Both the position numbers and the translations under genes were made by a program. Under the pieces are notes generated by a model that was not told the DNA's origin, searched no databases, and was given only the letters and a program-made list of their open reading frames with translations. Shown piece by piece: positions 7,339 through 14,452 of a stretch of DNA of 64,000 bases. The stretch's first letter is position 1. Each line of letters opens with the position of its first letter. Source of the stretch: an uncultured Chloroflexia bacterium (GTDB lineage: Bacteria; Chloroflexota; Limnocylindria; QHBO01); the NCBI GenBank assembly GCA_963839635.1, contig CAWIVT010000003.1, positions 3,187 through 67,186 of the forward strand, read 5' to 3'.

Positions 7339-8356
7339 TCAGCCTCCGATGAAGCTCATCTCGACCTTGGGAACCTCGACGGTCTCGAGCGTTCGCAGCT
7401 CCGAGTAGCGGTCCGAGCGGCCGCTCCAGATGGCGCGCAGCGCATCGGACAGATCGTCGTCACCGGCACCCGAGCGGATGACCGCGCGGAGATCGTGGCC
7501 CGACGTCGCGAACAGGCACGTGTACAGCTGGCCGTCGGCCGAGAGTCGGGCGCGCGTGCAGTCGCCGCAGAACGGCTGCGTCACGCTGCTGATGACGCCG
7601 ATCTCGCCCGCTCCGTCACGGTAGCGATAGCGCTGCGCCACCTCGCCGCGGTAGTCCGGGTCGACCGGCTCGAGTGGCCAGCGCTCGTCGATGGTGGCAA
7701 CGACCTGTGCCGCAGGGACCACGTCGTCCAGGCGCCAGCCGTTTGTGTGGCCCACGTCCATGTACTCGATGAACCGCACGGTCGTGCCCGTCCGCCGGAA
7801 GTGCTCGGCCAGGTCGAGGATGGCGTGCTCGTTCAGGCCGCGCCGGACGACCGCATTCACCTTGACGGGGCCGAGCCCCGCCGCGTCGGCGGCGGCGATC
7901 CCGTCGAGGACGCGCGTCACCGGGAAGCCGACGTCGTTCATGCGCTGGAATGTCTGGTCGTCCAGCGCGTCCAGGCTGACGGTGACCCGATCCAGGCCGG
8001 CGTCGGCCAGCGCCTGCGCTCTCGGCGCCAGCAGCGAGGCGTTGGTGGTGAGGGTCAGGTCGTCGACCCCCTCGACCGCGGCCAGCATGCGCACCAGGGT
8101 CTCGAGGTTGCGGCGCACGAGCGGCTCACCGCCGGTGAGGCGAACCTTTCTGACGCCGAGCGCCGACGGACGCGCGAACGACCCGCTCGATCTCCTCGAA
8201 GTCCAGGATCTCGGCCCGCGGCAGGAACGCGTGATCGCGGCCGAAGAGCTCCTTCGGCATGCAGTACACGCATCGGAAGTTGCAGCGGTCGGTGACGCTG
8301 ACCCGAAGGTCGTGCATCGGCCGGCCGAGGAGATCGACGGGTGCGGAGGGATTCAT
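7339..8356 (-). CDS. moaA: GTP 3',8-cyclase (frameshift near 8150)
   Basis: [18 protein letters not shown] radical-SAM motif, [27 protein letters not shown]-terminal MSFIGG. Confidence 0.95.
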
Positions 8357-8401
8357 CGGTGAACCGATCGTGGCAGGCATGGCAGATCGGCGCAACGCGC
8401 C

Positions 8402-10292
8402 TCAGCCGATCAGCTTCGACGCCCCGATCAGGGCGCCCAGCGACTGCGCCGACCGCACCGCCGCCGATGAGCGCGATGCGCGAGGCCAGTGCCTCGCAGC
8501 GCGGCAACCGCGCGCCACCGAGGCCGAGACCCAGGCCGACGGCACCGCCGAGCAGCAGGAGCGCGGCGACGCCGAGGCTCGGATCGAGCAGCGAGCGCAC
8601 CTGGCCCTCCTCGATCCCATCCTCGTCGAGCGTGAACGCGAATCGCTGGCGTGAGAGCTCGGTGCCGTCGACGCCCAGGATCCGAACGCTGGTGTCCCAC
8701 GCGCTGCCCGTCGGGAGCACGAGCGCGTCGGCGATCCAGTCGATCGTGCCGTCATCGGTCTCGTGGCTTGCCCCCATGCCGCCTCCGGAGTGATCCATGC
8801 CGGTCATGCCCTCGAGCTCGAGAGGCACGCGGGTGGTGCTGCCGTCATCGAGATTGTCGAGTCCCAGCTCCAGGGCGGAGGAACCGGCCATGGCGTCGAT
8901 CGTCGAGACCACGATGCGATTGACGCCGGGTCGGCCCGGGATGACTGCCATGCTCATGCCCGGCGCGACCTCGCCGAAGGCGTCGGGGATCGGCTCGATC
9001 TGGACGCCAGGTACCTCCTCCACCGGTGGCGTGATCGCCAGCGCCGCCGTCAGGACGAGGACAGTTGCGGCGAGCATGACCTCGACCGTGATCCGGCTGC
9101 GGAAGCCGTCCAGCCATCCCATCATCCGACCGCCGTCGAAGTAGTTCAGCGCCCCAAGCGCGAGCGCGCCGATCGCAAAGGCGGACTTCATCAGCAGCGT
9201 GCGGCCGTACTCGGTGCCGGCCGGTACGAGCGTGCCGGTCTGCGTCCAGGCCGCCTGGACGCCCGTCAGCACGACGAGCCCGATCGACGCCAAGGCCAGC
9301 GCCGAGAAGCGAGGGACGATCTCGCGCATCTCCGGACGCCCCCGACGAGGTCCGGTCAGCAGCTCCGGCCAGCGAACGAGCGCCAACAGTCCAACGATCC
9401 CACCGATCCAGACGGCGGCGCCGGCGACGTGTACGACCTGGCTCACGAGAGGCGCGACACCCGGGAGCGCGGCGGTGTGCCCGGATGCCACCAACAGGAC
9501 GATGCCGATCAGTCCCGTGGCCGCCGCGACCGCCCCGGCGAGGCGAGGCGCCACGAACAACAGGATCGCCGCCCCCGCCGCGGCCACCGCCGCGCGGGCG
9601 ACCTGCAGAGCTCCGTTCCGGGTCCCGAACAGGAAGTCGATCACCGATCCGGACTCGAGGCCGGAGATGATCGCGACGGTTAGCGTCGCCGCACCACTCA
9701 CCAGCAGTGCGCCGGCGAGCAGTCGGACCAGCGAGCGAGGCATCGGTCCGTCACGGATCACGACCCGGTGGAGCGTGGCCATGCCGAGGGCCAGGAGCAG
9801 GCCCAGGTAGGTGAGCCATCGACCGATCACGCCGGGAGGGTCGGTGTCGCTGTGGGTCATACCCTGGGGGCCACCGGCCAGCGACCCCGGAACGTCCCCG
9901 ACGCCGAAGTTGAAGAATCCTTCCGCCGTGTGACCGTCCGCCGCCGAGAGCGTTCGCCAGGTGAGCCCGTAGACGCCATCGGCGAGCTGCGGGTCGCGCA
10001 GCACGAGGGCGTACGGATCGGCAGGGTCGACCTCACCGACCCGGGTGAGCACCGGTGCCGCGTTGAGGTCGACGATGTCGATCGAGGTCACCTGTGACTC
10101 CAGCGGCTCGCTGAAGACGAGGCGGATCTCGTCGGGCGACTCGGCCACGATCGCACCCGCACCGGGCGAGCTCGCGACCAGCTGCGCATGTGCGAGCACG
10201 CGGCTGCCCGACGCCCCGGGCAATGCCGGAGCGACGAGCAGCGCGAGCATCGCCAGCGCGCCCGCGAGGCGCGCTGCGCGGGAGGCGGGCAT
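8402..10292 (-). CDS. CopC-CopD fused copper uptake protein with extra C-terminal domain
   Basis: Signal peptide then mature N-terminal HAQLVASS, FSEP and WRTLSAADGH (CopC); CopD TMs with SGHTAA and HVAGAAVWIGG; Met/His loop GMTGMDHSGGGMGASHE. A frameshift near 8455 hides the likely stop at 8402. Confidence 0.88.
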
Positions 10293-10296
10293 CAGG

Positions 10297-10884
10297 TCAG
10301 GGACGACGCCGCGCCAGGGTCAGACCCAGCGCCACGAGGCCGGCAATGAGCCCGCCGGCGCCGAGAACGAGCGCGATCGTCGCCGTTGTGGCGGCACCCG
10401 CGCCTGCCTCCGCGTCGCGAACCACGTCGCCGGTCGACGGGAACTGCACCGGGAATTGGCCGCCGGTGACGTCCTGCACCTCGCTGAACGTATCCGGTCC
10501 GGACGTGAACGACTCGTCGAACGGCTCGCCCTCGATCTCGCCGAAGATGCGGAACGTGTACGGGCCGGCCGCCGTCGGAAAGAAGACGGACTGGTACCAG
10601 CCGGGCTCTCCGAACCGGGGCGAGATCTCGAGATCTCGCGTGTCGTCGCCGAAGGTGACGGTGGCCTCGAGCGTCTCCTCGAGCCCTTCGACCGGCTCTT
10701 CGCCATGCGAGACCTGGAACTCGAGCCCGCTCTTCTGTCCGGTGAAGACCGGCTCATCGGCGAAGCCGACCACCACGCTGTGGTCACCGACATCTCGTGA
10801 TTCATGGCCGATTGCGGCTCCGGTGCCGACGATCAACGTCAACCCGGCAGCCAGGGCGGCAGCCCGCCCAATGCGCTGGAACAT
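10297..10884 (-). CDS. Secreted, C-terminally anchored protein with predicted mature N-terminal His (putative Cu-binding)
   Basis: Signal peptide ending AAIG followed by HESRDVG; beta-rich body; C-terminal TM plus RRRP; GAGGAG SD; 4 bp upstream of copCD. Confidence 0.75.
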   Translation of the reverse strand: MFQRIGRAAALAAGLTLIVGTGAAIGHESRDVGDHSVVVGFADEPVFTGQKSGLEFQVSHGEEPVEGLEETLEATVTFGDDTRDLEISPRFGEPGWYQSVFFPTAAGPYTFRIFGEIEGEPFDESFTSGPDTFSEVQDVTGGQFPVQFPSTGDVVRDAEAGAGAATTATIALVLGAGGLIAGLVALGLTLARRRP

Positions 10885-10926
10885 CTGATTCTCCTCTGGT
10901 CGGGCAGTGCGCCCGATATATCCGTT

Positions 10927-11592
10927 TCAGGTAGCTGACACGAACATCCAGGGAGGTCCACGGCCTGCGTAGGAACGCGCGAACGCAGTCGGAAGGTCTG
11001 CGACCAGGCGAATTGGCGGCCGCAAGGTGCGAAGCGGCGCGCGGCCCAGGATTCGCTGCAGCGCGTCCTCGATGACTGCCAGAAGCGCCCGCTCAGTGTG
11101 GCTCAATGCCGCTGCGCCGACCGCGAGCAACCCGGTGATGATCGTGATCACCGGCAGCGCGAGCGGGTATTCGGGACCGATCAGCGCGCCGAGGCCGGGC
11201 GCGTGCCCGTGGCTGAGCAGGTGCTCCACGTTCTCCTGGATGCCAAACCCGATCGCCGCCACTGCGAGCAGCCGAGCCCAGGCGGCAACCCAGCGCATGG
11301 CATACGGCCTCGTGCGCGCGACCCGGTTCGCCCCGAGCTGAGCCGCCCTGTGACGCAAGCTCCCCAGGCGGACCAGCGTGCCCGCGAGGATTGCGACGCC
11401 GCCGAGCGCCAGCACCAGGCTGGCAATGCCCCAGTAATCGTGGCCGGCCTCGCGCAGCGACCGCGCGAGGGCTTCGCCCGGACCGACCTGGACCAGGAAG
11501 ACCGCGTCATGGCTGAGCAGCAGAGCGACGCCGGCCAGGCCCCAGAAGGCGACCGGGCCGCGGATGCGCGACAGCTGGTGAGCAAACCCCAT
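10927..11592 (-). CDS. His-rich membrane protein ending in RGPP (candidate arrest-peptide leader)
   Basis: About 4 TMs with SHD, GHDYW and EHLLSHGH; hydrophilic tail ending AGRGPPWMFVSAT; first gene of the cop unit. Confidence 0.75.
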   Translation of the reverse strand: MGFAHQLSRIRGPVAFWGLAGVALLLSHDAVFLVQVGPGEALARSLREAGHDYWGIASLVLALGGVAILAGTLVRLGSLRHRAAQLGANRVARTRPYAMRWVAAWARLLAVAAIGFGIQENVEHLLSHGHAPGLGALIGPEYPLALPVITIITGLLAVGAAALSHTERALLAVIEDALQRILGRAPLRTLRPPIRLVADLPTAFARSYAGRGPPWMFVSAT

Positions 11593-11671
11593 GTCAGTTC
11601 ATACGGTACCCGACACGCGCCGCACGCCTCCGTGCCGCCCGAGCTGTAACCCAATCCGCATACTGGTTGAC

Positions 11672-12256
11672 GTGTCTCGATTGCTGCTGTCGTTGATCCT
11701 GCTCGTGGCCGGATGCACGGCCACCCCCCGGACGGAGGCGCCCGACTCGACGGTCGCGATCGTGGTGTCTCCCATGCCCGATGCGCGCTCACCTTCGGCC
11801 CAGCCGTCCGCATCCTCCCTTCCCGTCGAGCCGCTTCCCCCGCTCGAGGGGGTCCTGCCGACCCATCTCGGCGACGTCGAGCTGCACACGTTCAGGGTCG
11901 GTCCCGACATCATCGATCGGCTCTTTCAGCGGCTCGGAGTCGGCTACGACGGGGTTCAGCAGGCCTACGCGAGCGAGCACGGCGAGCGCTTCCTCCAGAT
12001 GTACGCGTTGCGATCTCCAGAGGTCTCCGGCCCGGAGATGCTGGAGGCCTGGGCCGCGGTCGCCTACGCCCCGGAAGTCGCGGAAGTGTCGGTGAGCGAA
12101 CGACCCGTGGCCGGAAGGACCGTCACGGTCATCGCGGCACCGAGCATGGCCAACCAGATCGGCACCTTCTACGCCTATACGTCGGGGAACATGCTGCTGG
12201 TCGTCCAGGCCTTTGACGAAGCGGTCGCCACGGAGGCTCTCCAAGCGCTCCCCTGA
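11672..12256 (+). CDS. Hypothetical lipoprotein
   Basis: GTG start, hydrophobic stretch with lipobox LVAGC, Pro/Ser linker, globular C-terminal domain. Confidence 0.7.
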   Translation: MSRLLLSLILLVAGCTATPRTEAPDSTVAIVVSPMPDARSPSAQPSASSLPVEPLPPLEGVLPTHLGDVELHTFRVGPDIIDRLFQRLGVGYDGVQQAYASEHGERFLQMYALRSPEVSGPEMLEAWAAVAYAPEVAEVSVSERPVAGRTVTVIAAPSMANQIGTFYAYTSGNMLLVVQAFDEAVATEALQALP

Positions 12257-12262
12257 GGTTGG

Positions 12263-13687
12263 TTACGCCGACTCGCCGTGGGCGTGTGCTTGCTCCTCGA
12301 GTCGCATCGAGAGGGTCGGGAGCGGACGCGGATCGGGAGTCGGCTCGTACTCGTCGCTGTGGCCGTTGACCGCGTAGGTCCACTGCGGCCCGTCACTGGC
12401 GATCGCGCGCAGCGCATCGGCCAGGGCGTCGATATCGGCCCTGGTGGACCCGAGCCCCAGGCTCATGCGCGCGGCGCCCGGCAGGCGCTCGTGGCCGCCG
12501 GTCCGAGTGGTGTCGATAAGGCGTTGTGCCTCGGCATCGTCGACGCGGAGCAGCCGCATCATGAGCGGGTGCGCGCAGAAGCAGCCGTGCCGGATGCCGA
12601 TCCCGTACTCGGCCGAGAGGACGGCCGCCAGCAGGTCGTACGGCACGCCGAGCAGGTTGAACGTGAGCAGGCCGACGCGCGGGTGGTCGGCCGGCCAGAC
12701 GCGGTAGTGCTCGAAGCCTTCCACGCCGGCCAGGCGTTCGCGTGCGTAGCCCAGGAGCTCCGCCTCCTCGGCCGCGATGCGGTCCATGCCGGCGGCCGCG
12801 AGCGCGTCGCAGGCAACGCCCATCGCCACGGCACCGATGACGTTCGGCGAACCCGCCTCCTGCCGGTCGGGGAGCTCGGCCCATACGGTCTCGTCGATCG
12901 TCACGATCTTCACGGCGCCGCCCCCGCGCAGGAACGGGTCGCCCGCGCCCAGCCAGTCGCGTTCGCCGATGAGCGCGCCGGCGCCGTACGGCGCGTACAG
13001 CTTGTGGGCAGACATGGCGAGGTAGTCGATTCCATCGCGCTGCATGTCGATCGGTGCGTGCGGCGCCAGCTGGGCGGCATCCACGAGCAGCCGCGCGCCA
13101 TTCTCATGCGCGACGCGGGCGATCTCGGCCAAGGGCCACATCTCGCCCGTCACGTTCGAGGCGCCGGTGGCGGCGACGAGATGCGGGTCCTCGCAGTGCG
13201 GCAGGTCGCGCAGGGAGGTGGCGAGCTGCTCGAGCATCTCGGCCGGCGTCTCTGGCACGGGCAGGTAGCGAACGCCGATCCGCTTCCACGGCAGCAGATT
13301 CGCGTGATGCTCGCCGGCGAAGGCCACGACGTGCGTCCCCTCGGGCAGCGTGCCGGCCAGCAGGTTGATCGAGTCGGTCGTGTTGCGCGTGATGATCACG
13401 GCATCGTCCGGCCGCCCGTTCACGAACGCGCGAATCGACTCGCGCGCCCCCTCGTAGGCGGCGGTCGACGTGCGTGACTTGAATCCGGCGCCGCGGTGGA
13501 CCGAGGAGTACCAGCTGAGCAGCTCCTCGACGGCATCGTGCACGGCCTGCAGCGCGGGCGCCGAAGCCGCGTAGTCGAGGTTGACGTACCGTCGGGTGCC
13601 GCCCGTCACGAGCGGGACCTCCGTATCGGCGCCGACGAGGCGCAGGAGGTCGCTGCCGTGGACCGATGACTCTCGGGTTGCCGTCAT
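12263..13687 (-). CDS. Class V aminotransferase / cysteine desulfurase-like PLP enzyme
   Basis: YVNLDYAASAP, SSVHRGAG, VDAAQLAPH, PLP lysine SAHKLYAPYG, IRHGCFCAHP. Confidence 0.9.
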   Translation of the reverse strand: MTATRESSVHGSDLLRLVGADTEVPLVTGGTRRYVNLDYAASAPALQAVHDAVEELLSWYSSVHRGAGFKSRTSTAAYEGARESIRAFVNGRPDDAVIITRNTTDSINLLAGTLPEGTHVVAFAGEHHANLLPWKRIGVRYLPVPETPAEMLEQLATSLRDLPHCEDPHLVAATGASNVTGEMWPLAEIARVAHENGARLLVDAAQLAPHAPIDMQRDGIDYLAMSAHKLYAPYGAGALIGERDWLGAGDPFLRGGGAVKIVTIDETVWAELPDRQEAGSPNVIGAVAMGVACDALAAAGMDRIAAEEAELLGYARERLAGVEGFEHYRVWPADHPRVGLLTFNLLGVPYDLLAAVLSAEYGIGIRHGCFCAHPLMMRLLRVDDAEAQRLIDTTRTGGHERLPGAARMSLGLGSTRADIDALADALRAIASDGPQWTYAVNGHSDEYEPTPDPRPLPTLSMRLEEQAHAHGESA

Positions 13688-13709
13688 CCGTCCCATCCTA
13701 CGCCGCGGA

Positions 13710-14452
13710 TCAGGGGAGGAACACGAGCTTTGCGGCTGCAAGAACCAGGACGAATGCCAGCGCGCGCCGCAGGTTGAGAATGCTGAAGCGTGCGGCTCCC
13801 AGCCATGAGCCGACCAGGCCACCGGCGGCAACCGCTGCCACCCAGAGCGGAATCGCCGGCGGCAGGTCCGACTCCGCCGGTCAGGAGACCGGCGAGGCCG
13901 GCGACCGAGTTGACGAGGATGAAGGCGCCTGACAGTCCGGCCGCGTCGCGGGTGCCGGTCCAGGCCGCAAGCACGAGGAGCGGTGTCAGGAAGATGCCAC
14001 CACCGGTCCCGGTCAGGCCCGCCAACAGCCCGATGGCGGCACCGACGGCAAGTCCGGCAAGCAGCGGAACTCCCGAGCGTTCGTCCGTCATCCGGCTCCG
14101 TCCGCGCCGTGGCCAGGCGCCAAGCACCGGCAAGCAGCACCACGGCCACCAGTGGACGGTAGACCTCTCCCGGCAGATCGATGCTTCCTCCAACGAACGC
14201 CATCGGCACGGAGCCCGCCGCGAGCGGGACGAGATTGCGCCATGGCACATGGCCGGCACGCGCGAACCGAACGATGACGATCGTCGAAACGAACAGGTTG
14301 AGCACGAGCGCGGTGGGACGCATGGTCGCCGGTGCGACACCCATGAGCGCCATGGCCGCCAGGTACGCCGAAGCGCCGGCGTGGCCGACGCTGGAGTAGA
14401 GGAGCGCGGCAGCGAAGAAGAGCCCCGCCAGGATGAGCGTCTCAACCGTCAT
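13710..14452 (-). CDS. TSUP (TauE/SafE) sulfur-compound transporter (two frameshifts)
   Basis: LYSSVGHAGASAYLAAMAL, GLLAGLTGTGGGIFLTP, FILVNSVAGL; C-terminus recovered in a third frame as LRRALAFVLVLAAAKLVFLP. Confidence 0.85.

What the first reader, a model, noticed from the sequence alone, without database searches (positions are those of the whole stretch)
10884..11592. Candidate copper-sensing ribosome-arrest leader: RGPP codons can sequester the SD of the downstream cop genes
Seen: the first gene of the minus-strand cop unit is a roughly 4-TM protein with His clusters (SHD, GHDYW, EHLLSHGH) and a hydrophilic tail ending RGPP-WMFVSAT. In the mRNA, CUCC-CUGG within the Pro-Pro-Trp codons (10955-10948) is complementary to CCAG-A-GGAG (10899-10891), which holds the SD of the next gene: 8 bp with one bulged A. 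An inner hairpin UCGGGC-gcacu-GCCCGA (10916-10900) sits directly beside the SD arm. Established: RAGP/RAPP-type motifs stall ribosomes in SecM, ApdA and ApdP, and the RAPP-ending uORF CruR mediates copper control in Bordetella. Inference: a ribosome stalled at RGPP covers the anti-SD and frees translation of the N-His protein and CopCD, with metal binding or membrane insertion releasing the stall. This leader has no Cys, so it would be a His-based polytopic variant unlike CxxC/DUF2946 leaders.
Basis: partly seen in the sequence, partly recalled or inferred. Interest (0 to 1): 0.85.

Follow-up and report, generated by a model that had tools for sequence, protein, structure and literature searches.

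The report
RGPP ribosome-arrest leader of copper operon
A four-helix membrane protein that ends in a known ribosome-stalling motif sits in front of copper-uptake-like genes, and the stalling codons themselves pair with the next gene's ribosome-binding site, so it is very likely a translation-arrest switch of a kind first described in 2022-2025.

Summary
ORF 10927-11592(-) encodes a 221-aa, Cys-free protein with four long predicted helices that ends AGRGPP-WMFVSAT. CUCCCUGG (10955-10948) pairs with CCAG-A-GGAG (10899-10891), the SD of the next gene.

Comparative evidence supports the arrest-leader reading:
- R[AG]PP lies 1-12 residues from the C-terminus in 120/120 close and 123/149 distant homologues.
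- In 134 diverse sequences only H28, R211, P213 and P214 are invariant.
- The order leader, 195-aa N-terminal-His protein, CopC-CopD held in every locus that reached far enough.
- The first Pro codon is the rare CCU in 20/29 genome loci and 16/28 metagenome loci, against 8-10% background. This builds the anti-SD CUCC.
- A covariance model recovers a three-way junction with compensatory changes in both sets.

Mixed points: predicted SD unmasking is strong in the window (7.8 to 4.0 kcal/mol) but reaches 3 kcal/mol in only 7/29 near loci. A distant subgroup lacks the codon bias.

The kind is in print. Fujiwara et al. (EMBO J 2025) report RAPP/RGPP transmembrane proteins upstream of YcnI-family genes and show arrest for a 4-TM, His-bearing Streptomyces example. 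CruR is the copper precedent. This is a new Chloroflexota member. What it adds is comparative evidence for the SD-sequestration step. Copper sensing and its direction remain inference.

The parts
10927..11592 (-). Leader/sensor gene: 221-aa, Cys-free protein with four long predicted helices and a disordered Arg-rich C-tail ending AGRGPP + 7 residues
   Evidence: ORF. No Pfam or NCBIfam family. AlphaFold2 pLDDT 86.9 with helices 3-36, 52-85, 97-128, 145-183 and a low-confidence tail from about 190. 241 homologues and 307 cluster representatives.
10951..10962 (-). R211-G212-P213-P214 codons (CGU GGA CCU CCC): proposed arrest core, with Pro213 in the P site and Pro214 in the A site by analogy
   Evidence: Sequence. 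R, P, P invariant and A/G at position 2 in 134 diverse homologues. 120/120 and 123/149 homologues have the motif within 12 residues of the end. P/A-site assignment is taken from the CruR toeprint reported in PMC12992588 section 14, not tested here.
10948..10955 (-). Anti-SD CUCCCUGG, made of the Pro-Pro-Trp codons
   Evidence: The CUCC:GGAG core is paired in 26, 19, 25 and 27 of 27 near loci. Pro1 = CCU in 20/29 loci against 8.1% background and in 16/28 against 9.5%.
10918..10947 (-). Hairpin H1: AUGUUCGU / ACGGAUAU with tip UCAG/CUGA. Its 5' arm is the codons just after RGPP, and the stop codon (10929-10927) lies in the tip stem
   Evidence: Cognate arms pair better than non-cognate arms, 0 of 5000 permutations. 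Compensatory changes occur in every H1 pair column of helices 2-3, and in 6 of the 7 pairs of the corresponding helix.
10900..10916 (-). Hairpin H2: UCGGGC-GCACU-GCCCGA, directly 5' of the SD arm. No U-tract, so it is not terminator-like
   Evidence: All 6 pairs show changes on both sides. No terminator-like site here.
10891..10899 (-). SD arm CCAG-A-GGAG of the downstream gene (core GGAG 10894-10891), 6 nt before AUG 10884-10882
10297..10884 (-). Regulated gene 1: 195-aa protein with a signal peptide, an invariant His27 right after the predicted cleavage site (A-HE), a beta-sandwich and a C-terminal membrane helix. It has YcnI-like architecture but matches no DUF1775 model
   Evidence: Alignment of 38 sequences. 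Model pLDDT 82.2. Best PDB fold match is the H. pylori copper determinant CrdA 9ll2_A, E 2.8e-4, TM(target) 0.68. No Pfam or NCBIfam hit. PF07987 not found in the genome.
8055..10292 (-). Regulated gene 2: CopC-CopD fusion. The open frame is 745 aa here against 626-646 aa in seven homologues, so its 3' end is frameshifted or read through
   Evidence: PF04234 6.9e-16 and PF05425 9.2e-12. NF033808 and NF033814 below their cut-offs. ORF lengths.

Best explanation
The first gene of the operon encodes a regulatory nascent chain of the RAPP/RGPP class.

Inferred topology: a 4-TM protein with N and C termini inside, whose conserved His/Glu/Asp residues (H28-D29, H51-D52-Y53-W54, Q119-E120-N121-x-E123-H124, H128, H130) all fall at the outer ends of helices or in outer loops.

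Proposed mechanism (inferred from published RAPP/RGPP systems, not tested here): when the ribosome reaches R211-G212-P213-P214 it stalls, with Pro213 in the P site. At that moment about 48 residues separate the end of TM4 from the peptidyl-transferase centre, so TM4 has just left the tunnel.

Off state, shown from sequence and comparison: without a ribosome on these codons, the mRNA 10955-10891 folds into a three-way junction. The Pro-Pro-Trp codons (CUCCCUGG) pair with the SD (CCAG-A-GGAG) of the next gene, and two inner hairpins hold the arms together.

On state (inferred): a stalled ribosome covers the anti-SD and the 5' arm of hairpin H1. This frees the SD and allows translation of the N-terminal-His protein and, with it, CopC-CopD.

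Signal (inferred by analogy with CruR and with copper-limitation control of B. subtilis ycnJ): copper bound at the outer His/Glu site, or the insertion and packing of the TM3-TM4 hairpin that it stabilises, pulls on the nascent chain and releases the arrest. The ribosome then terminates seven codons later and the SD closes again. Uptake genes would thus be on when copper is scarce and off when it is sufficient. The sign of the response is the least secure step.
For: Motif:
- R[AG]PP lies 2-9 residues before the stop in 47 of 48 genome loci and in the window.
- It is present in 28 of the 28 metagenome loci that reach the C-terminus, out of 31 fetched.
- It lies within 12 residues of the end in 120/120 close homologues and 123/149 distant cluster representatives.
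- In 134 sequences down to about 25-30% identity, the only invariant columns are H28, R211, P213 and P214, with A212 in at least 90%.
- The residues after the motif vary in sequence and number (1-11).

Synteny: leader, P195, CopCD in this order in every locus that extends far enough. 47 of 48 loci have P195; L011 ends before it.

RNA:
- The window's MFE and centroid contain the anti-SD:SD stem.
- Pro1 is CCU in 20/29 near loci against 119/1476 = 8.1% background, binomial 7e-16 (loci not independent). The replicate gives 16/28 against 9.5%.
- Ala is GCU in 15/45 loci against 8.9% background, and in 14 of the 27 Ala codons of the replicate set (no Ala background computed there).
- Cognate arms pair better than non-cognate arms: outer stem 13/5000 permutations, H1 0/5000.
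- CM R1, built from 10 sequences, finds the element at the expected place in 27 of 29 near sources and in 25 metagenome loci not used to build it.
- Paired cells are 71.1% against 60.9% shuffled, and 71.8% against 62.5%. 20 of 24 pairs show changes on both sides in each set. Covariation score is 0.249 and 0.234, against 0.118 and 0.109 shuffled and at most 0.085 for slid partners. 0/500 shuffles reach the observed values.

Switch size in the window: the cost of opening SD and AUG falls from 7.8 to 4.0 kcal/mol when the footprint of a ribosome at Pro213 is masked.

Spacing: QENxEH to RAPP is 89-98 residues in 303/304 homologues. TM4 end to the P-site Pro is 43-55 in 300/303.

Literature:
- RAPP and RGPP are robust, EF-P-refractory arrest cores and are avoided in proteomes.
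- RAPP/RGPP TM proteins stand upstream of YcnI-family genes.
- The 4-TM SLIV_18480 arrests in vitro and in vivo (PMC12992588, sections 13-15 read).
- CruR: copper relieves a RAPP arrest (PMC9426467, abstract and Discussion read).
Against: - No experiment on this protein or on any member of its family; arrest is inferred from the motif.
- RAPP alone is not sufficient for arrest, according to the Discussion of PMC12992588.
- SD pairing is not uniformly strong. By duplex energy the real window ranks in the best 5% of control windows in only 11/29 near and 3/18 far loci.
- Masking a stalled ribosome lowers the RBS opening cost by 3 kcal/mol or more in only 7/29 near and 2/18 far loci. Medians are 6.9 to 5.0 and 8.1 to 7.5.
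- A ribosome at the stop codon gives nearly the same opening in the window (4.1 kcal/mol).
- RNAalifold on a plain MAFFT alignment found no structure. The covariation counts rest on alignments fitted to the model's structure, which lean towards it.
- The 18 'far' loci (tail mostly 3 residues, spacer 58-106 nt) have no CCU bias (1/18) and no H1 signal.
- The whole 220-aa protein is well conserved and folds confidently, unlike most leaders, so it may also have a function as a mature protein.
- 26 of 149 distant representatives lack the motif near the end. By eye most look truncated or out of frame, but this was not verified. L048 lacks it too.
- Nothing here links the protein to copper except its neighbours and its conserved His/Glu residues.
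Confidence: 0.65

Rival explanations
1. Arrest is real but its main output is not SD unmasking in response to copper. One version: a constitutive pause tethers the polycistronic mRNA at the membrane and couples synthesis of the downstream membrane proteins to insertion of a functional 4-TM subunit. Another version: the stalled ribosome blocks Rho-dependent termination, as in CruR. The SD pairing would then be secondary.
For: - The protein is conserved over its full length and models as a compact four-helix bundle at pLDDT 86.9, which suits a working membrane protein.
- A ribosome at the stop codon opens the window's RBS as well as a stalled one does (4.1 vs 4.0 kcal/mol).
- The predicted switch is small in most loci.
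- The far group has about 100-nt spacers without the CCU bias, which resembles the long spacer of cruR (162 bp; PMC9426467 Discussion).
Against: - In the near group the spacer is only 36-60 nt and folded, which leaves little room for a rut site.
- Synonymous selection for CUCC at the arrest codons, and covariation of the stems that bring it to the SD, are hard to explain unless the pairing matters.
- No terminator-like site lies between the genes.
Confidence: 0.17
2. The C-terminal GR(A/G)PP is conserved for a role in the finished protein, such as a contact, a degradation signal or a processing signal. It would cause no regulatory stall. The RNA fold would be an ordinary translational-coupling or stability element.
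For: - No direct evidence of stalling exists for this family.
- RAPP needs a suitable upstream context to arrest (PMC12992588 Discussion).
- A crude scan of the genome finds 18 RAPP and 10 RGPP in 1,879 retained ORFs, so the motif is not absent elsewhere. The ORF filter was rough.
Against: - The motif sits in a low-confidence, Arg-rich tail. It is followed by 1-11 unconserved residues.
- It is more conserved than any putative metal ligand except H28.
- All seven tested C-terminal RAPP/RGPP proteins of S. lividans arrested (PMC12992588 section 14).
- The distance from the membrane domain to the motif is held within 10 residues in 303/304 homologues, although the linker sequence drifts.
Confidence: 0.1
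3. Chance. Any Pro-Pro pair in a GC-rich genome gives CC-rich RNA that can pair with a GGAG nearby, so the fold means nothing.
For: - The z-score of the window fold is only -2.32.
- Many control windows inside the ORF pair with the SD region about as well.
Against: - The background Pro codon is CCG (61%), which does not give CUCC. The rare CCU is used in 20/29 and 16/28 loci.
- Cognate arms beat non-cognate arms.
- 20 of 24 pairs carry compensatory changes in two separate sets, with 0/500 shuffles as high.
Confidence: 0.03

Closest known systems
RAPP/RGPP transmembrane arrest proteins upstream of YcnI-family and other copper genes, e.g. Streptomyces lividans SLIV_18480 (Fujiwara et al., EMBO J 2025, PMC12992588; sections 13-15 read)
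   Same: - C-terminal RAPP/RGPP a few residues before the stop.
- Four predicted TM segments.
- Conserved His residues proposed as a copper site.
- Same-direction downstream gene for a membrane-anchored, YcnI-like copper protein.
- The protein has no annotated family.
   Different: - Different phylum: Chloroflexota (Limnocylindria and relatives) rather than Actinomycetota.
- No Cys at all, whereas Cys40 and Cys127 are described for SLIV_18480. No conserved Met was seen.
- The downstream gene matches no DUF1775/YcnI model, so an annotation-based screen would not file it there.
- That paper shows arrest but leaves open whether and how downstream genes are regulated. The RNA evidence here bears on that step.
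CruR (Bp2923, DUF2946) of Bordetella pertussis (Roy et al., mBio 2022, PMC9426467; abstract and Discussion read)
   Same: - First gene of a copper-acquisition operon.
- Conserved C-terminal RAPP needed for regulation.
- A metal-binding motif at a conserved spacing from RAPP.
- Proposed ligand-dependent release of arrest.
   Different: - CruR is a small, signal-peptide-bearing, poorly structured protein with an invariant CXXC. This protein is 4-TM, Cys-free and confidently folded.
- CruR acts through Rho-dependent termination across a 162-bp spacer. Here the spacer is 42 nt and the SD is paired with the arrest codons.
- No Pfam DUF2946 match.
SecM-secA, MifM-yidC2, ApdA/ApdP-secDF monitoring substrates (named in the abstracts and text of PMC7897499, PMC10987492 and PMC10951233 as listed; the stem-loop mechanism is recalled)
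   Same: - Arrest near the C-terminus of an upstream ORF with a membrane or secretion signal.
- The stalled ribosome disrupts an mRNA stem that hides the downstream SD.
- RAPP/RAGP core at the peptidyl-transferase centre.
- Release by pulling force on the nascent chain.
   Different: - The downstream genes are copper proteins, not Sec or YidC.
- The leader is polytopic and conserved throughout.
- The anti-SD is built from the Pro-Pro codons of the arrest core itself, with synonymous-codon selection.
Bacillus subtilis ycnKJI copper-uptake operon (YcnI and the CopC-CopD fusion YcnJ; PMC12154828 and PMC13344008, search listing and start of abstracts only)
   Same: - Pairing of a membrane-anchored extracytoplasmic protein that has an N-terminal His with a CopC-CopD fusion.
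- Implicated in copper uptake.
   Different: - In B. subtilis the control is transcriptional, through YcnK and CsoR (recalled). No arrest leader is known there.
- P195 is not a DUF1775 member by sequence.

Membership tests
RAPP/RGPP-type ribosome arrest peptides | R-(A/G)-P-P core close to the C-terminus of the upstream ORF | tested here: met
   RGPP at residues 211-214 of 221. Present within 12 residues of the end in 120/120 and 123/149 homologues.
RAPP/RGPP-type ribosome arrest peptides | Core conserved while the residues after it, and much of the linker before it, vary | tested here: met
   Only H28, R211, P213 and P214 are invariant in 134 sequences. Tails of 1-11 unconserved residues.
RAPP/RGPP-type ribosome arrest peptides | N-terminal localisation signal or transmembrane segments | tested here: met
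   Four long hydrophobic helices in the AlphaFold2 model. The topology is my reading of the positive-inside rule, not a tool result.
RAPP/RGPP-type ribosome arrest peptides | Same-direction downstream gene whose expression can be coupled to the stall (SD hidden in a stem that a stalled ribosome would open) | tested here: met
   Synteny. Stem. Codon bias. Covariation. The size of the predicted effect is uneven.
RAPP/RGPP-type ribosome arrest peptides | Experimentally observed arrest: peptidyl-tRNA, a toeprint with Pro in the P and A sites, loss on Arg-to-Ala | not testable with these tools
   Needs in vitro translation and toeprinting.
CruR / DUF2946 | Match to the DUF2946 model and an invariant CXXC motif | tested here: not met
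   No Pfam family at E <= 0.1. The protein has no Cys.
CruR / DUF2946 | Long spacer and Rho-dependent termination before the next gene | tested here: not met
   The spacer is 42 nt here and 36-60 nt in the near group. Rho dependence itself cannot be tested.
SLIV_18480-type 4-TM metal-related arrest proteins (Fujiwara 2025) | Four TM segments, C-terminal RAPP/RGPP, a metal-related downstream gene | tested here: met
SLIV_18480-type 4-TM metal-related arrest proteins (Fujiwara 2025) | Sequence homology to SLIV_18480; three conserved His plus one Met; Cys40 and Cys127 | not testable with these tools
   The sequence and Appendix Figs S5-S7 were not available. All named relatives found here are Chloroflexota. 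The ESM Atlas lists its nearest unnamed clusters as 'commonest Actinomycetota', which is a lead only. No Cys in the window protein.
YcnI / DUF1775 (for the downstream 195-aa protein) | Match to PF07987 or an NCBIfam YcnI model | tested here: not met
   No hit. PF07987 finds nothing in the genome, which is 56.7% complete.
YcnI / DUF1775 (for the downstream 195-aa protein) | Architecture: signal peptide, His as first mature residue, beta-sandwich, C-terminal membrane helix | tested here: met
   H27 invariant after A-x-A-like sites in 38 sequences. Strands 27-127 and helix 151-192. The best PDB fold match is the copper determinant CrdA, not YcnI.
CopC-CopD fusion (YcnJ-like) | CopC and CopD domains in one chain | tested here: met
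   PF04234 6.9e-16 and PF05425 9.2e-12, both above the Pfam cut-offs.

The most novel reading that the evidence does not exclude
A polytopic membrane protein acts as a co-translational sensor of extracytoplasmic copper. While the ribosome is parked on RGPP, TM4 is just emerging. Copper captured by the outward-facing His/Glu cluster (H28, H51, E120, E123, H124) locks the TM3-TM4 hairpin against TM1-TM2. The resulting pull releases the arrest and lets the Pro-Pro codons re-pair with the SD. External copper availability would then set the translation of an uptake system directly, with no transcription factor, no riboswitch and no cytoplasmic metal pool involved. The same protein family would do this across several Chloroflexota families, sometimes in three or four copies per genome.
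Probability: 0.25. Interest if true: 0.8.

Novelty: new member of a known kind. Interest (0 to 1): 0.5.

Why it matters
RAPP/RGPP arrest peptides were recently shown to reach beyond protein secretion into metal homeostasis. The authors of that work state that it is unknown whether, and by what mechanism, these new examples control their downstream genes (PMC12992588 Discussion).

This family offers about 60 natural sequence variants in which the arrest codons double as the anti-SD. They show synonymous-codon selection and compensatory changes, which is comparative evidence for the SD-unmasking route in a copper operon. CruR, by contrast, uses Rho.

It also shows that screens based on downstream annotation miss cases. 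Neither the leader nor the next gene here has any Pfam or NCBIfam family.

Finally, it gives a compact, Cys-free, confidently modelled 4-TM candidate for studying how metal binding or helix insertion generates force on a nascent chain.

Tried and rejected
- Family libraries: Pfam and NCBIfam gave nothing for the leader or for P195.
- Fold and sequence searches: a Foldseek search of the leader model against the PDB gave no match at E <= 0.001. Profile searches of both alignments against PDB sequences gave only designed TM proteins or noise.
- YcnI membership of P195: not supported by sequence. YcnI was not among the 50 best fold matches listed.
- RNAalifold on a MAFFT alignment of 29 spacers returned no pairs. 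I therefore set a hand-made structure on a 10-sequence seed (67% paired) and re-aligned with a covariance model.
- Duplex-energy ranking against control windows gave only moderate enrichment.
- The partition-function 'switch' test was mixed.
- Rho or terminator reading: no U-tract terminator between the genes. Rho cannot be tested.
- Link to Streptomyces SLIV_18480: I could not obtain its sequence. A profile search with distant members returned only Chloroflexota names, a tblastn of a distant member against plasmids found nothing, and the ESM Atlas gave only a taxon hint.
- The 'far' subgroup was not modelled separately. I only saw in single-sequence folds that its SD (UCAGGAG) often pairs with the last sense codon plus the stop codon (CCUGA).
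- Complex prediction, the look-up of sequencing runs and read laying were not used, because no claim here rests on protein binding or on expression data.
- Supplements of PMC12992588 (Appendix Figs S2-S7, source data) are closed. They may list this family or show the SLIV_18480 sequence and its neighbourhood.
- Not-in-print claim: searches found no paper on this Chloroflexota family. The terms Shine-Dalgarno, secondary structure and stem-loop do not occur in the main text of PMC12992588.
Full report
**What is there**

On the minus strand, ORF 10927-11592 encodes a 221-aa protein without Cys. It ends ...AGRGPPWMFVSAT. Forty-two bases downstream begins a 195-aa ORF (10297-10884), followed by a CopC-CopD fusion (8055-10292; PF04234 6.9e-16, PF05425 9.2e-12). 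Neither the leader nor the 195-aa protein matches any Pfam or NCBIfam model.

CUCCCUGG (10955-10948, the Pro213-Pro214-Trp215 codons) is complementary to CCAG-A-GGAG (10899-10891). This gives 8 bp with one bulged A. GGAG lies 6 nt before the AUG.

RNAfold of 10870-10975(-) places this stem in both the MFE (-38.6 kcal/mol) and the centroid, around two inner hairpins. The other is AUGUUCGU/ACGGAUAU, whose tip (UCAG/CUGA) contains the stop codon. The z-score is -2.32.

**The protein family**

A word-indexed search found 241 relatives, and an exhaustive HMMER search found 307 cluster representatives. All source names seen are Chloroflexota or Candidatus Limnocylindria.

In a sample of 301 Chloroflexota genomes, 19 have a match. 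These fall in four families, and some genomes hold 3-4 copies (the tally includes two unpublished genomes).

The C-terminal motif is the family's most conserved feature:
- 120/120 close relatives and 123/149 distant representatives have R[AG]PP within 12 residues of the end. By eye, most of the 26 exceptions look truncated or out of frame; I did not verify this.
- In an alignment of 134 sequences down to about 25-30% identity, the invariant columns are H28, R211, P213 and P214, with A212 in at least 90%.
- Most members have RAPP. The window has RGPP, as do 13 of the 243 motif-bearing sequences.
- What follows the motif is 1-11 unconserved residues.

Other conserved residues are H51, W54, Q119, E120, N121 and E123. 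In the close group D29, H124, H128 and H130 are also conserved.

AlphaFold2 on the 134-row alignment gives a confident model (pLDDT 86.9, pTM 0.76). It has four long helices (3-36, 52-85, 97-128, 145-183) and a low-confidence tail from about residue 190. It has no significant PDB neighbour.

By the positive-inside rule (my reading, not a tool) both termini are cytoplasmic, and all the conserved His/Glu/Asp lie at the outer face.

The distance from QENxEH to RAPP is 89-98 residues in 303 of 304 sequences. The distance from the end of TM4 to the P-site Pro is 43-55 residues in 300 of 303, although the linker sequence drifts.

**Gene order**

In 48 loci from species-representative genomes, the order leader, P195, CopCD held wherever the contig reached far enough. 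47 of 48 have P195; L011 ends first.

P195 has an invariant His27 directly after the predicted signal-peptide cleavage site, a beta-sandwich and a C-terminal membrane helix. Its best PDB fold match is the Helicobacter pylori copper determinant CrdA (E 2.8e-4, TM 0.68 on the target). This is the architecture of YcnI, but DUF1775 does not match it.

**The RNA**

I split the loci into two groups:
- 'Near': 29 loci including the window, with a tail of 5-8 residues after the motif and a spacer of 36-60 nt.
- 'Far': 18 loci, with a tail of mostly 3 residues and a spacer of 58-106 nt.

In single-sequence folds the SD pairs with the Ala/Pro-Pro codons, or with codons just beside them, in most near loci.

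Four tests show this is more than chance:

1. Synonymous codons. Pro1 is CCU in 20/29 near loci, against 8.1% of 1,476 other Pro codons in the same loci. Pro2 is CCU in 11/29. Ala is GCU in 15 of 45 loci against 8.9%. Together these spell (G)CUCCUCC.
2. Replication. In 31 metagenome loci fetched afterwards, none identical to a genome locus over the 80-nt region, 28 reach the C-terminus and all 28 have R[AG]PP. Pro1 is CCU in 16/28 against 9.5%.
3. Cognate versus non-cognate arms. The outer stem averages -13.99 kcal/mol for cognate pairs against -12.70 for non-cognate (13 of 5000 permutations as low). Hairpin H1 averages -12.11 against -9.69 (0 of 5000).
4. Covariance model. A model built from 10 sequences with a structure I set by hand finds the element at the expected place in 27 of 29 near sources. 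It also finds it in 25 metagenome loci that played no part in building it.
   - On these alignments 71.1% and 71.8% of cells pair, against 60.9% and 62.5% after shuffling.
   - 20 of 24 pairs show changes on both sides in each set.
   - The covariation score is 0.249 and 0.234, against 0.118 and 0.109 for shuffles and at most 0.085 for slid partners. 0 of 500 shuffles reach the observed values.
   - The CUCC:GGAG core is nearly invariant: 26, 19, 25 and 27 of 27.
   - Caveat: these alignments are fitted to the model's structure and lean towards it, and the loci are related.

**Results against, or mixed**

- RNAalifold on a plain MAFFT alignment found nothing.
- By duplex energy alone, the real window ranks in the best 5% of control windows from the same ORF in 11/29 near and 3/18 far loci.
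- I computed the cost of opening SD and AUG from partition functions, with and without the footprint of a ribosome whose P site holds Pro1. In the window it falls from 7.8 to 4.0 kcal/mol. It falls by 3 kcal/mol or more in only 7/29 near and 2/18 far loci.
- A ribosome at the stop codon opens the window's RBS about equally (4.1 kcal/mol).
- The far group shows no CCU bias (1/18) and no H1 signal. There the SD word UCAGGAG often pairs with the last codon plus stop, CCUGA. I did not model this further.

**How it most likely works**

Shown:
- The motif, its conservation and its fixed spacing from the membrane domain.
- The gene order.
- The conserved, covarying structure that pairs the arrest codons with the SD.

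From published knowledge:
- RAPP and RGPP are robust arrest cores that EF-P does not relieve, and RGPP is the most stable.
- Arrest occurs with the two Pro codons in the P and A sites.
- All seven C-terminal RAPP/RGPP proteins of S. lividans arrested in vitro and in vivo (PMC12992588, sections 13-15 read).
- In CruR, copper relieves a RAPP arrest (PMC9426467, abstract and Discussion read).

Inferred:
- A ribosome parked on RGPP masks the anti-SD and the 5' arm of H1, so the SD is free and P195 and CopCD are made.
- Release of the arrest lets the ribosome terminate seven codons later, and the junction re-forms.
- The release signal is copper bound at the outer His/Glu cluster, or the insertion and packing of TM3-TM4 that it favours, acting as a pulling force.
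- The conserved ~48-residue distance between TM4 and the peptidyl-transferase centre fits a force-sensing arrangement. The force-distance relation is recalled, not checked.
- The sign (copper turns uptake genes off) is taken from CruR and from copper-limitation induction of B. subtilis ycnJ. That induction is recalled; the two B. subtilis papers were seen only as search listings and abstract starts.

**Comparison with what is known**

The kind is in print. Fujiwara et al. (EMBO J, December 2025) report three things:
- RAPP/RGPP small proteins are enriched upstream of YcnI-family, PCu(A)C and TonB-receptor genes.
- Those upstream of YcnI genes are mostly transmembrane.
- The 4-TM SLIV_18480, with a predicted copper site of three His and one Met, arrests translation.

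They state that whether and how such arrests regulate downstream genes is open. Their main text does not mention SD sequestration.

The present family is therefore a new member of that kind, in another phylum. It is Cys-free, and its downstream gene would escape an annotation-based screen. It adds comparative evidence for the SD-unmasking step.

It is not a CruR/DUF2946 member: it has no Pfam match, no CXXC and a short spacer.

Homology to SLIV_18480 could not be tested, because its sequence and the Appendix figures were not available. The ESM Atlas hint of Actinomycetota look-alikes is only a lead.

**Verdict**

The arrest-leader and SD-sequestration reading is well supported by comparison (about 0.65). 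Copper sensing and its direction are plausible but untested. Interest 0.5.

Noticed in passing
window 8055-8420 (-): The CopC-CopD open frame is 745 aa here but 626-646 aa in seven homologous loci. After ...LPRCEALASRIALIGGGAVGAV the window's frame departs from the conserved ending and runs on as an Arg-rich read-through into the moaA region. This is an apparent frameshift or assembly error at the 3' end.
   Followed up: partly
window 7339-8395 (-): A MoaA-like radical-SAM gene appears split into two frames: 8126-8395 holds the N-terminal CxxxCxxC part and 7339-8118 holds the rest. This is a second apparent frameshift close to the first (read by eye).
   Followed up: no
window 12263-14452 (-): A 729-aa open frame joins a TauE/SafE-like membrane part to an aminotransferase class V / cysteine-desulfurase-like part, through an Arg-rich stretch that looks out of frame. 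This may be another frameshift in this assembly (read by eye, no family search).
   Followed up: no
L028, L030-L032, L034-L038, L040, L041, L044-L047 (far-type loci): Distant homologues end ...LVRLDAGRAPP + 3 residues and have spacers of about 60-106 nt. They show no CCU bias at the Pro codons. In several single-sequence folds the SD word UCAGGAG pairs with the last sense codon plus the stop codon (CCUGA). This could be a different anti-SD or a different mechanism.
   Followed up: partly
G124, G091, G224 (genome search handles): Some Chloroflexota genomes carry three or four copies of the leader family. In G224 two copies lie head to head within 1 kb.
   Followed up: no
G000:C4:148289-149300(+) and G000:C6:418555-419977(-): A crude ORF scan of the window's genome found two other open frames with RAPP within 15 residues of the end: a 336-aa frame ending ...SRAPPRDLGPGQSATG, and a 473-aa frame ending with a hydrophobic helix then RRAPPAA. 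Their downstream genes were not examined.
   Followed up: no
window 11591-12256 (+): The divergent neighbour encodes a lipoprotein-like product (LLVAGC lipobox) with no Pfam or NCBIfam family. A homologue lies about 2.3 kb upstream of the leader in L006 and L007, but it was not found within the flanks of the other loci.
   Followed up: partly
L001, L003: Two MAG records carrying close homologues of this Chloroflexota operon (65% and 61% identity) are titled 'uncultured Steroidobacteraceae bacterium'. That looks like a binning or labelling error.
   Followed up: no
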